This document shows positions 1 to 55,706 of a DNA stretch of 64,000 nucleotides, piece by piece. Numbering within the stretch: the first letter of the stretch is position 1; every line of letters starts with the position of its first letter. A program made the translations under genes and the position numbers. The stretch is taken from assembly GCF_009914755.1 (NCBI RefSeq), contig NC_060932.1, one strand, 5' to 3'. The DNA is from the human T2T-CHM13v2.0 reference genome, Homo sapiens. The notes beneath the pieces are model-generated. The model searched no databases. It was not told where the DNA came from and worked only from the letters and a program-made list of their open reading frames with translations.

Positions 1-160
1 ATGCTGAGGGCCAGCAGCCCCCAGCTGACTCTGAGGCTTGCTGTGCTGTTGCAGAGATCTGTGTTGCAACATGAGGCCCTGGAGGCGGCCAGGCTGTCTT
101 GGTAGCCAGGGCAGGTGTAAGCGCATGATTTTATAATAATCATTTGCTGACCTGGGGGAG
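1..160 (-). pseudogene. Ly6 pseudogene last coding exon (LU domain C-half plus GPI signal), open to the window edge
   Basis: Acceptor ctctgttttccag|; translation TPPGQQMIIIKSCAYTCP...SCCNTDLCNSTASLRVSWGLLALS; no stop within the window. Confidence 0.95.
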
Positions 161-308
161 CTGGAAAACAGAGGGCAGAGGGCTGTTTTCTGAGACCTGA
201 GACCTGTGAAATTCACTCCTGCCCCTCTCGACAGACAAAAGCCTGCCAGACTCTTCCTCATTGTTCTCCCACCTTACAGGGATGCAGAGCAAGAGGCAAG
301 TACAGCCC

Positions 309-757
309 CAGGGCTCAGTGTGTGACAGGGACCAGGGCTCAGTGTGTGACAAGGACCAGGGCTCAGTGTGTGACCAGGACCAGGGCTCATTGTGTGACAA
401 GGGTCAGGGTTCAGTGTGTGACCAGGAACAGGGCTCAATGTGTGACCAGGACCAGGGCTCTGTGTGTGACAGGGACCAGGGCTCAGTGTGCGACAGGGAC
501 CAGGGCTCAGTGTGTGACCAGGACCAGGGCTCGGTGTGTGACAGGGACCAGGGCTCAGTATGTGACCAGGGTCAGGGCTTAGTATGTAACCAGGACCAGG
601 GCTCAGTGTATGACAGGGACCAGGACTCAGTGTGTGACCAGGGTCAAGGCTCAGTGTGTTACCAGGACCAGGGCTTGATGTATGAACAGGGCCCAGGGCT
701 CAGTGTGTGACCAAGGTCAAGGCTCAGTGTGTGACCAGAGTCAGGCTCAGTGTATGA
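309..757. repeat. 24-bp minisatellite (CAGGGCTCAGTGTGTGACAGGGAC), about 18-19 copies, in the last intron of the Ly6 pseudogene
   Basis: Direct tandem units; explains the periodic ORFs at 261-710, 322-582 and 140-400. Confidence 0.95.
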
Positions 758-1133: not shown

Positions 1134-1241
1134 TGGTCCAGGTGGTCAGGCAGTAACGAGTGGTGTTTTGGCAGGATGTGGGCTGGAAACAATTCCCTCA
1201 ATTCCCTGTCACAGAGCACTCATGGCATCTCAGTGCCTGGG
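1134..1241 (-). pseudogene. Ly6 pseudogene exon encoding the LU domain N-half (LRCHEC...YC), with in-frame TGA at 1200-1198
   Basis: Acceptor ctctcccag|, donor A|gtgagt, 108 nt, 5 Cys. The tandem duplication caattccct x2 (+ strand 1190-1207) creates the stop. Confidence 0.95.
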
Positions 1242-1907: not shown

Positions 1908-1958
1908 CTGAACACACCAGCCTCAGAGACAGCAGCCAAGACAGGTGGATCCTCGTGG
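1908..1958 (-). pseudogene. Ly6 pseudogene signal-peptide exon (start codon mutated to ACG at 1956-1954)
   Basis: ccctagCC ACG AGG ATC CAC CTG TCT TGG CTG CTG TCT CTG AGG CTG GTG TGT TCA G|gtgagc: 16 codons plus 1 nt, leucine-rich, with a consensus donor. Confidence 0.85.
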
Positions 1959-2304
1959 CTAGGGCGGGGCAGATAGGCAGGTGGTGGCCCCATCCAGAGC
2001 TCGGGCTGTCTGGCCTGGATCAGGCCATCTGGTCTTTATGGGGCCTTCTCCAGCTGTGGCTGGGGTGGGGCAGGTGTGTCCCTCACTGTCTCCTGCCTCC
2101 ATCCCAACATGTGACATCACCCGAGGTGTGGCTGGAGCAGTAAATACTTCCACGAGCGCACCCCGCTTCTAAGCTCCCCGGCTGCCTGGGCCTGGTGCCC
2201 TGGGCCCTAGAGAGCCACTCACTGCCCCCTTCACCAGCCCCCTGCACACACGCCTCCCCACCACGGCACCAGGGGCCGGCAGTGCTGCTGTCTGCTTCTC
2301 CCTA

Positions 2305-2984: not shown

Positions 2985-3116
2985 ACTGGCAGGTGGGGGC
3001 TGGCCAGGTAAGGGCTGGCCATGCGAGGGCTGGCAGGTGGGGGCTGGCTAGGTAAGGGCTGCCAGGTGAGGGCTGCAAGGAGAGGGCTACCAGGTGGGGG
3101 CTGCCAGGTGGGGCTG
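2985..3116. repeat. Degenerate ~15-bp tandem repeat (GGGCTGGCAGGTGG/GGGCTGCCAGGTGA)
   Basis: About 8 imperfect units seen directly. Confidence 0.75.
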
Positions 3117-5905: not shown

Positions 5906-6600
5906 GATGGCGGGACTGTCGGTGGGGATGGCGATAATAGTAATGGTGGTGATGGTAACGGTGATAATGATGGTGATGGTGGTGGTGGTGGTGGTGATAG
6001 TGATGGTAGTGATGGTGTTGATGATGGTGGTGATGGTGGTGGTGGTGGTAGTTATGATGGTGGTGGTGGTGGCTATGATGACAGTGATATTGTGGTGGTG
6101 GTGATAGTGGTGGTAGTGATGGTGTTGATGGTGATGGTGTTCTTGGTGGTGGTGGTGGTTATGATGATGGTGATATTGTGGTGGTGGTGATAGTGGTGGT
6201 GGTGATGGTGTTGATGGTGTTCTTGGTGGTGGTGGTGGTTATGATGGGGGTGATGGTGGTGGTGGTGGTGGTGGTGGTGGTGATGATGGTGGTGGTGGTG
6301 GCTATGATGACGGTGATATTGTGGTGGTGATAGTGGTGGTAGTGATGGTGTTGATGGTGTTCTTGGTGGTGGTGGTGGTTATGATGAGGGTGATGGTGGA
6401 GGTGGTGGTGGTGGTGGCGGTGGTGGCTATGATGATGGTGATATTGTGATGGTGGTGATAGTGGTGGTGGTGATGGTGTTGATGGTGTTCTTGGTGGTGG
6501 TGGTTATGATGAGGGAGATGGTGGTGGTGGTGGTGATGATGGTGGTGGTGATGGAAGGGGTAATGATGGTGCTGGTGATGGTGTTATTGGTGGGGATAAG
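5906..6600. repeat. (GGT/GAT)n low-complexity tract with higher-order duplications
   Basis: Recurring blocks such as gatggtgttcttggtggtggtggtggttatgatg and ggctatgatg..gtgatattgtg. Confidence 0.95.
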
Positions 6601-7930: not shown

Positions 7931-8859
7931 TCAGAGCTCAAGCTCTCTGTCTGGCTCAGGTTTATTTTGAGGATGTCAAGGGCCACATTCTCACTGACCC
8001 CCTTGGTGGTGGGAAGGTGAGGGTGGGTTGTCTTCCTGGACCTCCCCTTTTCCAGGCTGGGCCAGCAGCTGCTCCATGTTCCCAGCACTTGGCTCAGATC
8101 ATGGTGTTGCAGCATCATGATCTGGGCAGGTTTCTGCCTCCTCCCCTGGACCACAGGCTCTGGCCCAGCCCATCCAAGGCTCTCAGGCCCCACACATGCA
8201 CCCTACGGGTGAGTGCTTTCAGCCTGATGCACTGGAGTCTTCCAACAGCATGGCCAAGCAGCGTCAGAGTTTTCGTGGTGGTGATGGCAATGCACAGCCT
8301 TGGCCCCTGAGTCACCCCAGCGGCTGGTGAGTCACAGCCTCTCCACAGGGCCAGCTGGGCCTTGAGCTCAGTAGCCCTGGCTGCACCCTACCTTATTTCT
8401 CAGGCTCCCAGCCATGCACCTGGCTGTGAGCACACACTCAGGGGACTCTGGACCCTGGCGATGCCATAGAAGAGTCAGGCCAGGCAGTGGGGCCGTTGAC
8501 ACGGGCAGTAGGATCCGTCCCTTTCCCTGTGGCTGAGGGGGTGGCTGGGGGTGGAGAGTGAGAGGCAGCCATGAGACGACTGCCCAAGGGCCCTGAAGCC
8601 GCGGCAGCACACCCCATGCCTCAGCTTCTCCTGCACAGTTAGGAAGCTCTTCTCTGTCTCTCTCCTGGGAGCCACCATCCCCCAGGTTCCCCTCTACTCC
8701 CAGTCGCCCATCCAGACACCCCTGAGCTTCCTAGAGCTCTAACCATCTTCTCCACAGTCCGGTCCCATTGCCTAGAAGTGGAAGGGCATGCAGAGGCTGA
8801 AAAGCAGAATGATGGGGCACCAGCCAGTGCTCCAGCCCCGGCACAGGCACTCGCTGTCT

Positions 8860-9003
8860 ATGTGCTTTCTCTGCCTCTGTTTCCTCATCTGCAAAATGAC
8901 AGCGTCTCTATTTTGATGCTCGTTGTGAGGAACAACGAGATATTTATAAACCCCTTAGAACAAAGCCTGGCTCAGTCAGTGCTAGAGACGTGTTAATTAC
9001 TAT
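8860..9003 (+). mobile_element. MIR 3' fragment
   Basis: ctctgtttcctcatctgcaaaatg...gttgtgagga...cttagaaca. Confidence 0.75.
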
Positions 9004-9699: not shown

Positions 9700-10720
9700 C
9701 GCCACTTAAAAGTGAAGCATAACACCTGAGCAGATGGTGCCTGCAACGCCCTTACCTCAAGTGTGTAGTTCCCTTAATTCTTGCACACGAATATGTAAGG
9801 TCAGCCGAGAGAAAGGACAAGAGAGAGAGAGACCCAAGTTCAGGCAAGTAAGTTTATTGAACCTGCCGGCTGCTCCATTACAGACAGACGAGGCAGCCCT
9901 GAGCTTATGATATGGGGGAGAGAGACCCTGGGGTGTTTGTTGGTTAACTCTGCCACATATCACCTTGTGACGTTTATGCTACCAGAGGGTGTAGGCAAAG
10001 TTTGTTTGTGCTTCCCACGACCTCCCCCTGTGCGGTCCCAATGGTTTGTAATTGGGATTTGCTTTATAGCAGCAAGGTCTGATAGGTAAAGTCTGCTGGC
10101 TTCACCGTGGCGTCTAGATAAGGGCTTAGAAATGTAGAGGCTTGGGGCAGCACAGAGAGGAGTTGCAGAGTGCAGAGGGGCGGGCAGCACCAAGAAGCTG
10201 CTTGGGGCAGTTTGTCCCTAACAGTATACACCTATGCGACCACTCCTAGGTTCCCTTGCGCCACCCCCACCTGGAGTAACCACCCTTCTGACTTCCATGG
10301 CTAGCTGACAGTCTTTTCTGCTTCTGACTTTTATATCAGTGGAATCACACAGGGTGCCCTCTGTCACATGCTCAGCGTCCTCTCTACAGGGTGCATCCAC
10401 GCTGACGTGCGTGTCGGTACCGTGTTCTTTTTCTGTTGCCGAGTAGCATTCCATTTGATGAATATCCACAACTTATTATCTTGTCTTCTGTCAACGGACA
10501 GTTGTGTCATTTCCAGATTGGGGATGAACACACTTACAAAAGTCTCTTTGTGGACACACATTTTCACTTCCCCTGGCTGTGTACCTAGGGGTGGAATTGC
10601 TGGACATGGAAGGCACCTGTTGAGCTTGGGTTTATGTGGCCACACCGTCCCTAAAGCGGCCCTACTGTGCTGCTCTCCCCACAGCAAAGCAGAGTGCTCC
10701 AGCTGCTCTATGACACTCTA
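9700..10720 (-). mobile_element. Old L1M 3' fragment split by an LTR insertion
   Basis: aaccacccttctgacttc, gagtagcattccatt, gtacctaggggtggaattgctgg. Confidence 0.75.
9794..10223 (-). mobile_element. Solo ERVL-class LTR (LTR32-like)
   Basis: TG...CA termini, antisense polyA signal (tttattg), 5-bp TSD gaata/gtata. Confidence 0.75.
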
Positions 10721-49918: not shown

Positions 49919-50453
49919 GAACGCTGACGTGGAACCCCCTGCCCTCAGCCAGCTAGCCTGCCCTGCCCTGTTCAAGCACCATGGGGCCAGGAGTGCCTGA
50001 GGGTGGAGGCAACTGGAGGCAGCTGGAGGCAACTGGAGGCAGCTGGAGGCAGGCCCTGGAGTGGTGGGCAGCCCTCCCAGCCTCCTAACCCATGCTCAGA
50101 CAGGTGACCACTGGCAGGCCCAGCTCCAGGCTAGCCCCAGGGACAGGGAGACCAGTCCCCCTCAGTGGGAGTCTGAGAGGGTGACTCTAAGATTCCCCAC
50201 CAACACCAACCACTGACTGGTGTGGAGGAAGCCCAGGGTGTGGGACCCTAGCACGGTAGGAGGTGGCCGTCAGGACCAGGAGTGTGAGGCTGGTGGGAAG
50301 AAAGGACCTTTTGCCAAATAGGAGGTGGTGTCTTCTTTAGGTATGTCAGGGTGGGAGGCTCCCACTCCATGTCTCTTGACCATCAACAACGGTAGCCCCA
50401 GATCCCCAGTGCCCAGCCAGCCTCTCTGGGACCTCTCTGTGCAGGTAAGACTT

Positions 50454-51179: not shown

Positions 51180-52826
51180 TGAAGACAAATCATAGTAGGA
51201 CAAATTTATTTAAAATAATTTTTCATCTTATACTTGGCCTGAGTGTTTGCATAATGTCAGCACGAATAATTATTTGCCATATAGGCCTGTCTTAAAATTG
51301 GCTTTGCTGGAACTTTATTCTATAACGAATCCCAGATTTGACTTTTTTTAAAGCCTTGAGCCCAGCCATGATTTATTGGTGCCTGAAAATACCTATATAA
51401 ATTGGGCAATGTCCTCTCCTCAAGGTCCCAGGATAATTTGGGGCTCCTGAGCCTGTCAGAAAGTGACATTCTTTACATACTACAGGCAAGGAACTCTGTA
51501 CAGTGACTGTGTAGACAAGGGATGAGGCCAACTTCATAAGTCAGCTTTGACTCCTTAAAGCAGTCTGTTTGTATCCAAAAGTACATCCTTCCGGTCAAAG
51601 CTTTGGTAAAATAACCAGTGTCTCCAATTATGTCCTGTTACAAAAGAAAATACATTCTTATTGAACTTATGCAAATAACTATACTGCCGTAAATTAAGTA
51701 TACTTGCAAATAGTTTTCAAATTTCTACAGAAATCAGGTAGACAGAAATGTACTTCAGAGTTTACTCACAGGAGGGTACTTTACCCAGTTGTGAAAAGCT
51801 GTTGAGTGCTGCCAATGCCCCAGTGAAGAAGCTGAGGTCAACATCAGATTTGAAATATTTAAAGTGGATACAAACTTATTTCAGCAATGCAGACAATTAA
51901 GTGTGTTTTTGTGGGCAATGGTGCTGTTGGTAAAACATGTCTCCTGATATCCTACACAACAAACAAATTTCCATCAAAATATGTACCAACTGTTTTTGAC
52001 AACTATGCAGTCACTGTTATGATTGGTGGAGAAACATATACTCTTGGACTTTTTGATACTGCAGGGCAAGACGATGATGACAGATTATGACCGCTGAGTT
52101 ATCTACAAACAGATGTATTTCCAGTCTGTTTTTCAGTGGTCTCTCCATCTTCATTTGAAAATGTGAAAGGAAAGTGGGTGTCTAAGATAACTCACCACTG
52201 TCCAAAGACTCATTTCTTGCTTGTTGGGACCCTAATTCATCTCAGAGATGACCCCTCTACTATTGAGAAACTTGCCAAGAACAAACAGAAGCCCACCACT
52301 CCAGAGACTGCTGAAAAGCTGATCCGTGACCTGAAGGCTGTCAGGTATGTGGTGTGTTCTGCACTCACACAGAAAGGCCTAAGGAATGTATTTGATGAAG
52401 CAATATTGGCTTCCCTGGAGCCTCCAGAACTGAAGAAGAGCCACAGGTGTGTGCTGCTAGGAACATCTCTCCAGAGCCCTTTCTGCACAGCTGGTGTCAA
52501 CATCATACTAAAAGCAATGTTTAACTCAAACTAAAGATTAAAAATTAAAATTCGTTTTTGCAATAATGACAAATGTCCTGCACCTACCCACATGCACTCG
52601 TGTGAGACAAGGTCCATAGGTATGGCCCCCTCTTCCCCCTCCCAGTACTAGTTAATTTTGAGTAATTGCGTATTGTCAGAAAAGTGATTAGTACAAGTTT
52701 TTGTTTTGTTGCTTCAAAATTTTTTTGTTTAAAAGCAAGGCATGCTTGTGGATGACTCTGTAACAGACTAATTGGAATTGTTGAAGCTGCTCCCTGGTTC
52801 CACTCTGGAGAGTAATCTGGGAGATC

Positions 52827-55352: not shown

Positions 55353-55706
<354 letters not shown>

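What the first reader, a model, noticed from the sequence alone, without database searches (positions are those of the whole stretch)
1190..1207. 9-bp tandem duplication that kills the Ly6 gene with an in-frame stop
Seen: the minus strand reads ACA GGG AAT TGA GGG AAT TGT. Removing one perfect AGGGAATTG copy restores ...VTGNCF... with the third Cys intact and the frame unchanged. The stop lies 64 nt upstream of the last junction, so NMD is expected under the 50-55 nt rule. Inference: the two copies are identical and the rest of the frame is clean, which suggests a recent lesion that could be lineage-specific, polymorphic or revertible by slippage.
Basis: partly seen in the sequence, partly recalled or inferred. 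Interest (0 to 1): 0.75.

Follow-up and report, generated by a model that had tools for sequence, protein, structure and literature searches.

The report
Dead human copy of mouse Ly6m
An unannotated relic on human chromosome 8, the counterpart of the mouse cell-surface gene Ly6m, carries a nine-base duplication that makes a stop and has also lost its start codon; it likely died in an ancestor shared with apes and Old World monkeys rather than recently in humans.

Summary
In detail: a perfect 9-bp tandem duplication at 1190-1207 puts an in-frame TGA (1200-1198, minus strand) 64 nt before the last junction. It lies in exon 2 of an unannotated three-exon Ly6 gene. The gene is 88/110 identical to a Cebus protein, groups with New World monkey proteins in the Ly6m clade, and has no second copy in the genome. 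The frame is not otherwise clean: the start codon reads ACG (31 of 31 orthologs have Met), and an Arg sits in the signal-peptide core. Losing one repeat copy would therefore not give back a normal gene. Identical copies do not date the event. Intact proteins occur from marsupials to New World monkeys, but 0 of 43 named close hits are apes or Old World monkeys, while a LY6L control finds them. Best reading: a unitary pseudogene of Ly6m, likely dead across catarrhines. Against great age, the mature domain is barely decayed. No ape DNA or population data were available, so lesion order and date are inferred. It is not in the loss catalogues searched. New member of a known kind; interest 0.38.

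The parts
2035..2040 (-). TATA-like CATAAA, 84 nt upstream of the former start codon (candidate promoter element; function untested)
   Evidence: sequence only
1908..1956 (-). Coding exon 1 (49 nt, signal peptide), phase-1 donor GTGAGC intact
   Evidence: 69% identical to Cebus residues 1-16; donor read from sequence
1954..1956 (-). Lost start codon: ACG in the context GCC-ACG-A, where orthologs have Met
   Evidence: M in 31 of 31 reference rows
1921..1923 (-). Codon 12 AGG (Arg) in the hydrophobic core of the signal peptide
   Evidence: the column holds L17, I11, T2, F1 in 31 rows; best 8-residue hydropathy 2.07 against 3.01 in Cebus and Callithrix (only Nannospalax, 2.04, is lower)
1134..1241 (-). 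Coding exon 2 (108 nt with the duplication): first half of the LU domain, Cys 1-5; acceptor and donor intact
   Evidence: (PF00087 28.3 bits, cut-off 21.2)
1190..1207 (-). Perfect 9-bp tandem duplication AGGGAATTG x2 (three-codon insertion)
1198..1200 (-). In-frame TGA at codon 31, formed at the junction of the two copies, 64 nt before the last exon junction
308..757 (.). 24-bp minisatellite (18.8 copies) filling about half of the 973-nt intron 2
1..160 (-). Coding exon 3: second half of the LU domain (Cys 6-10, CCNTDLCN) and hydrophobic GPI-type tail. It runs on past the window start to a TAG at L001 1478-1476 (G000:C8:144087978-144087976), where the orthologs also end
   Evidence: PF00087 27.7 bits; 85% to Cebus

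Best explanation
The locus is the single human copy of the Ly6m gene, broken by a lost start codon and by a 9-bp duplication that makes a premature stop, and it likely stopped working in the common ancestor of apes and Old World monkeys. Shown: the three exons, the lesions, orthology by tree, single copy in the genome, and intact proteins in New World monkeys and other mammals. Inferred: the ancestral product was a roughly 110-residue GPI-anchored three-finger protein on the cell surface, likely of gut epithelium. The duplication likely arose as a short tandem copy during repair or slippage; the run is exactly one unit long, so there is no extra flanking microhomology. Any transcript would give little or no in-frame initiation at ACG, at most a 30-residue stub, and would be an NMD target. 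Which lesion came first is unknown, so the duplication may be the original knockout or later decay. Loss of one copy alone would leave the start and signal defects.
For: [quoted passage not shown] Position between GML/CYP11B and LY6E (hub table) matches the mouse order Gml, Gml2, Ly6m, Ly6e; the same paper lists LY6M as having no human ortholog (PMC4839075 passages). Only this locus matches strongly in the genome (E 1.6e-27 and 7e-8; next 0.028). M1T and L12R. 0 of 43 named rows among the 46 close hits (E <= 1.1e-18) are catarrhine; the 3 unnamed rows look rodent. The first search gave 0 of 17 named rows. The same search with LY6L gave a 98%-identical cluster, Pongo and Rhinopithecus clusters (4, 4 and 21 members) among 8 rows. 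One further hard lesion is what a loss at catarrhine depth would give (expected 1.6).
Against: The mature domain looks well kept. It has only 4 clear human-branch changes (A27V, T59M, V61I, E74D) plus 1 ambiguous one, none at a strongly conserved column, with all 10 Cys and all splice sites intact. The New World monkey lineages have more changes over the same span. Under a catarrhine-stem loss 7-10 mature changes are expected (P of 5 or fewer 0.06-0.28), and P(no frameshift, point nonsense or splice loss) is 0.22 (recalled branch lengths). Absence of protein models is not absence of an open frame; PMC-held and preprint text on LY6S notes that a gene missing from human annotation can bias other genomes' annotation. 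No ape or monkey DNA was seen. The branch holding all 42 Ly6m-clade rows has support of only 96/69.
Confidence: 0.55

Rival explanations
1. Same pseudogene, but lost later and in parallel: once in the ape or great-ape ancestor (the human lesions) and separately in Old World monkeys.
For: The little-decayed mature domain fits a loss at great-ape depth slightly better (expected 5-9 changes at kappa 4 without CpG boost, 0.8 further hard lesions). The gene seems prone to loss: the Prolemur model has lost three conserved Cys, and no carnivore, ungulate or bat row appears among the 46 close hits.
Against: It needs two or more events where one suffices. The sequence-internal preference is under about threefold and rests on recalled branch lengths and an assumed prior dN/dS.
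Confidence: 0.25
2. One reading: the duplication is a recent, human- or hominine-specific knockout, perhaps still polymorphic, and other catarrhines keep an intact but unannotated gene.
For: Identical copies, 10 intact Cys, intact splice sites and few mature-domain changes. Annotation bias is documented for the neighbour LY6S.
Against: A second hard lesion (start loss) and a two-base Leu-to-Arg change in the signal core must also fit into a short time; only 0.3 further hard lesions are expected. No catarrhine protein was found although New World monkey, galago and even a degenerate lemur model were annotated and the control found catarrhine clusters.
Confidence: 0.12
3. The locus still makes something useful: initiation at the near-cognate ACG with read-through of the TGA, a 55-residue product from the in-frame ATG in exon 3, or a non-coding RNA.
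For: ACG sits in a fair context with a purine at -3. Splice sites are intact, there is an in-frame ATG at codon 59, and a RefSeq enhancer lies about 6 kb upstream (hub table).
Against: It needs two inefficient events and a damaged signal peptide. The exon-3 product would lack a signal peptide and half of the disulfide scaffold. RefSeq has no row here, and no matching protein appeared in the searches.
Confidence: 0.03

Closest known systems
Mouse/rat Ly6m (2010109I03Rik) and its mammalian orthologs, mostly labelled 'lymphocyte antigen 6D-like'
   Same: Three exons, 110-111 residues, ten-Cys LU domain, CCNTDLCN motif, hydrophobic tail, position just before Ly6e. 88/110 identical to Cebus and 61/110 to the murine row P0021.
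   Different: The human copy lacks the ATG, has Arg in the signal core and has a three-codon insertion with a stop. PMC4839075 lists LY6M as having no human ortholog and unknown function.
Human unitary pseudogenes (e.g. the Zhang 2010 set, PMC2864566: GULO, ART2B, NR-type and others)
   Same: Single-copy, unprocessed, disabled in human, with intact orthologs in other mammals.
   Different: This locus was not found in that paper's text or supplement or in the other catalogues searched, and it has no RefSeq row.
LYNX1, SLURP-2 and PSCA (solved LU-domain structures)
   Same: Best sequence matches in the PDB (E 1.1e-8, 6.7e-7, 2.6e-6). LYNX1 and SLURP-2 also top a weak fold search.
   Different: They are paralogs that are intact in human. 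Nothing here shows that Ly6m shares their nicotinic-receptor partners.
LY6S (unannotated human Ly6 gene found in the same cluster)
   Same: An overlooked Ly6 locus at 8q24.3 with mouse counterparts.
   Different: LY6S is reported as expressed and coding and belongs to the Ly6a group; this locus is a disabled member of another clade.

Membership tests
Ly6/uPAR (LU) superfamily | Ten-cysteine LU pattern ending in CCxxxxCN | tested here: met
   Cys at 22, 25, 34, 40, 47, 65, 69, 83, 84, 89, aligned with the invariant columns
Ly6/uPAR (LU) superfamily | Profile match to the LU / three-finger family | tested here: met
   PF00087 above its cut-off for exon 2 and exon 3 separately; PF00021 matched but below its cut-off for each half
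Ly6/uPAR (LU) superfamily | Three-finger fold | tested here: inconclusive
   Only the Cebus ortholog was folded: pLDDT 60.6, pTM 0.41; no Foldseek match at E <= 0.001, best LYNX1 at 0.015
Ly6/uPAR (LU) superfamily | Working signal peptide from an ATG | tested here: not met
   ACG start and Leu12Arg; this is part of the disabling, and the orthologs meet it
Ly6/uPAR (LU) superfamily | GPI-anchor signal | not tested
   Hydrophobic tail aligned with orthologs; no predictor was run. PMC4839075 predicts a GPI anchor for mouse LY6M
Ly6m orthologous group | Groups with Ly6m proteins and not with paralogs | tested here: met
   sister to Cebus + Callithrix 98/99; identity 61-80% to eutherian rows. The whole-clade branch has only 96/69, but the paralogs lie on long separate branches
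Ly6m orthologous group | Syntenic position between the GML/CYP11B block and LY6E | tested here: met
   Hub table for human; mouse order in PMC4839075.
Ly6m orthologous group | Direct match to a record named mouse Ly6m | tested here: inconclusive
   The murine row P0021 has no name; the named Ly6m rows are Nannospalax and Jaculus
Unitary pseudogene | Disabling lesions in an unprocessed gene at its ancestral site | tested here: met
   Start loss and in-frame stop; introns of 666 and 973 nt
Unitary pseudogene | No intact copy elsewhere in the genome | tested here: met
   9 matches at E <= 10, only the two at this locus below 0.02 (12 candidates scored)
Unitary pseudogene | Fixed in the species and not translated | not testable with these tools
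   One haploid assembly; no population, RNA-seq or ribosome data

The most novel reading that the evidence does not exclude
Humans, or the African apes, lost a gut-surface Ly6 protein that is conserved from marsupials to monkeys only recently. The 9-bp duplication was the knockout, intact copies persist unannotated in other apes and Old World monkeys, and single-copy or ATG alleles may still segregate in people or archaic genomes.
Probability: 0.12. Interest if true: 0.7.

Novelty: new member of a known kind. Interest (0 to 1): 0.38.

Why it matters
It corrects the statement that mouse Ly6m has no human counterpart: the counterpart exists, and it is dead. It adds an apparently uncatalogued entry to the list of human gene losses, for a gene kept from marsupials to New World monkeys. 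In rodent studies the gene shows up in stomach, intestine and colon expression tables, including after bacterial infection. It tells mouse workers that Ly6m phenotypes will not carry over to humans. It also points to a gene that may have been lost several times in mammals. If the loss proved recent or polymorphic, it would be a testable case of human-lineage gene loss at the gut surface.

Tried and rejected
1. Other candidate first exons (ATGs at 1899, 1859, 1317, 1302; a leucine-rich stretch near 1620-1580) were dropped because 1956-1908 aligns with the orthologous signal peptide and ends in a proper phase-1 donor.
2. A search of 1.84 billion representatives with the exon-2 read-through frame, meant to catch primate genomic fragments, gave 6 hits, all 50-63% identical and none primate-like.
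3. A relative-rate count gave no dating power: 8 changes on the human branch, 10 on the New World monkey stem, and 3 (Cebus) or 5 plus a 3-residue gap (Callithrix) on the tips. A rough binomial on the mature part gave P 0.13.
4. The structure model was low-confidence and the fold search weak.
5. The ESM Atlas only returned LU-family clusters without species detail.
6. Weak tblastn hits elsewhere in the window (10511-10621, 49995-50072, 55439-55519) showed no Ly6 pattern; a fourth at 52421-52582 lies in CDC42P3 and was not examined.
7. 'Ly6I/Ly6M' in PMC6491625 is likely the Ly-6M alias of Ly6i (alias listed), so its immune-cell expression was not used.
8. Earlier scan findings were not available.
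9. Selenocysteine recoding of the TGA was not tested.
10. Rows left out of counts: one search excluded the 6 marsupials and the Prolemur, Talpa, Erethizon and Sciurus models (degenerate or mis-modelled ends) from the 31-row reference. The tree used 41 of the 46 close hits. One search listed 120 of 160 hits.

Full report
1. Observation. On the minus strand, 1207-1190 is AGGGAATTG twice, and the maximal period-9 run is exactly one unit long. The junction of the copies forms TGA at 1200-1198 in the frame that reads LRCHECSVTGN before it and GNCFQPTSC after it. The stop lies 64 nt before the exon donor at 1134|1133, which is the last junction. Shuffled 342-nt stretches held such a duplication in 28 of 20000 trials. 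The real window, however, holds 13 perfect period-9 duplications, many in simple repeats, so the repeat matters because of where it sits.

2. The gene. Exon 2 (1241-1134) and exon 3 (160 to a TAG just outside the window, L001 1478-1476) each match PF00087 above its cut-off. A search with exon 3 returned 20 proteins among 22 candidates, led by 107-111-residue 'lymphocyte antigen 6D-like' models of Cebus (85%), rodents, Callithrix, galago, lagomorphs and xenarthrans. Their signal peptide identifies exon 1 at 1956-1908. The three exons are 49, 108 and 185 nt, join in phase 1, and have canonical splice sites. The sequence as found is 88/110 identical to Cebus, 83/107 to Callithrix, 78/110 to Otolemur and 61/110 to the unnamed murine row P0021. 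In a 52-row tree it is sister to Cebus plus Callithrix (98/99). It lies among 42 rows that include two proteins named Ly6 family member M, apart from ten paralogs; the branch under all 42 has only 96/69. PMC4839075 (passages seen) gives the mouse order Gml, Gml2, Ly6m, Ly6e and lists Ly6m as three exons, predicted GPI-anchored, function unknown, no human ortholog. The hub table places this locus between CYP11B2/GML and LY6E. A genome search with the Cebus protein found only this locus at strong E-values.

3. Lesions. Besides the duplication, the first codon is ACG, where 31 of 31 reference orthologs have Met. Codon 12 is AGG (Arg) in a column that holds only L, I, T or F, at least two base changes from a Leu codon. 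Parsimony puts eight changes on the human branch: M1T, T3I, P10S, L12R, A27V, T59M, V61I and E74D, with position 43 ambiguous. The claim that the rest of the frame is clean therefore fails, and loss of one repeat copy would not give a normal gene. The remaining ATGs are out of frame (1993, a 35-codon spliced frame ending in exon 2; two short ones in exon 2) or start mid-domain without a signal peptide (codon 59). NMD is an inference from the 50-55 nt rule (established knowledge, recalled); no transcript was seen.

4. Age, evidence for an older loss. A profile search over lengths 8-223 returned 160 proteins among 7986 scored candidates, 120 listed. Of these, 46 are close (E <= 1.1e-18): New World monkeys, galago, a degenerate Prolemur model, rodents, lagomorphs, xenarthrans, elephant, hedgehog, mole and marsupials. 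None of the 43 named rows is an ape or Old World monkey, and the 3 unnamed ones look rodent. Clusters show only one name, but a catarrhine protein would need 90% identity to Cebus to hide there, and the human sequence has 80%. As a control, the same kind of search with the LY6L last exon returned 8 proteins among 21 candidates, including a 98%-identical cluster, Pongo and Rhinopithecus clusters of 4, 4 and 21 members, so the database does hold catarrhine proteins. Identity of the two copies carries little weight: P is 0.90, 0.75 and 0.56 for events at human-chimpanzee, great-ape and catarrhine depth (per-lineage distances 0.006, 0.016, 0.032 and 0.055 are recalled round figures, not measured).

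5. Age, evidence against an older loss. The mature domain has all ten Cys, no change at a strongly conserved column, and only 4-5 changes. A catarrhine-stem loss predicts 7-10 (P of 5 or fewer 0.06-0.28 by assumption), against 4-9 for a human-only loss. Missing protein models do not prove missing frames, and the LY6S preprint (passages seen) warns of exactly this bias. A search for primate genomic read-through fragments found none. So a catarrhine-wide loss is favoured, not shown, and the order of lesions is unknown.

6. What the protein likely did. The orthologs have a signal peptide, one LU domain and a hydrophobic tail. The nearest solved structures by sequence are LYNX1, SLURP-2 and PSCA. 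The fold model was weak. In passages seen, the gene is up 2.2-fold in mouse intestine 8 h after Salmonella (PMC3022924), listed at log2 -2.40 in mouse gastric surface cells in an H. pylori study (PMC13020875), and lower in rat colon on a fibre diet (PMC11398711). PMC6893646 lists it among candidates in a mouse adenovirus susceptibility interval, and PMC11368017 in an introgressed region in zokors. My inference is a GPI-anchored modulator on the gut epithelial surface; no partner is known from these calls.

7. Is it in print? Full-text searches for Ly6m (13 papers listed), 2010109I03Rik (11) and four combined queries, showed no title or abstract start on a human or primate Ly6m pseudogene; most of those papers were seen as listings only. 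Supplement searches by name were empty for PMC10195156, PMC7555810, PMC2864566 (main-text passages) and PMC3580494. PMC6886504 lists only a LY6K pseudogene at 142.80 Mb, with 2 of its files not searched. PMC10195156 uses Ensembl ids; its 90 partial-loss rows have chr8 entries only at 98 and 138.6 Mb, and I saw 44 of its 68 complete-loss rows. Lists keyed by ids in the other supplements, GENCODE, HGNC, TOGA, subscription journals and preprint supplements were not seen and could hold an entry.

8. Verdict. A real lesion in a real, unannotated unitary pseudogene of Ly6m (identity about 0.93 likely). The duplication is one of at least two hard lesions. New member of a known kind; interest 0.38.

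Noticed in passing
window 308-757: 24-bp minisatellite of 18.8 copies inside intron 2, a likely length-polymorphic repeat.
   Followed up: no
window 1238-1237 (minus): A second CAG acceptor 5 nt downstream of the exon-2 acceptor (CCCAG CCCAG); its use would shift the frame.
   Followed up: no
window 1993 (minus): Out-of-frame ATG 37 nt upstream of the former start, between the TATA-like box and the ACG; its spliced frame ends after 35 codons in exon 2.
   Followed up: partly
window exon 3, codon 59: The T59M change creates an in-frame ATG with a 55-codon frame lacking a signal peptide.
   Followed up: partly
P0039 (Prolemur simus model): The lemur model has lost three conserved Cys and shows 10 changes at conserved columns, suggesting an independent loss; no other lemur or colugo row was among the close hits, although the LY6L control found them.
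   Followed up: partly
one search hit list: No carnivore, ungulate, cetacean or bat row among the 46 close hits, while hedgehog and mole are present: possible further losses in Laurasiatheria (absence only).
   Followed up: no
P0002, P0006: The New World monkey stem carries 10 amino-acid changes, more than the whole human branch, and Callithrix has a 3-residue deletion: fast evolution or relaxed constraint in intact copies.
   Followed up: no
P0047 (Sciurus vulgaris): A second, degenerate Ly6m-like model in squirrel beside an intact-looking one (P0005).
   Followed up: no
window 2986-3116 and 5971-6583: 14-bp repeat array about 1 kb upstream of exon 1, and a long TGG-type simple repeat.
   Followed up: no
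L001 524 (minus), about 950 nt after the stop: ATTAAA, the only polyadenylation-like hexamer found in 1.5 kb downstream.
   Followed up: no
window 8316-8887: RefSeq enhancer in the hub table about 6.3 kb upstream of the pseudogene's first exon; its target is unknown.
   Followed up: no
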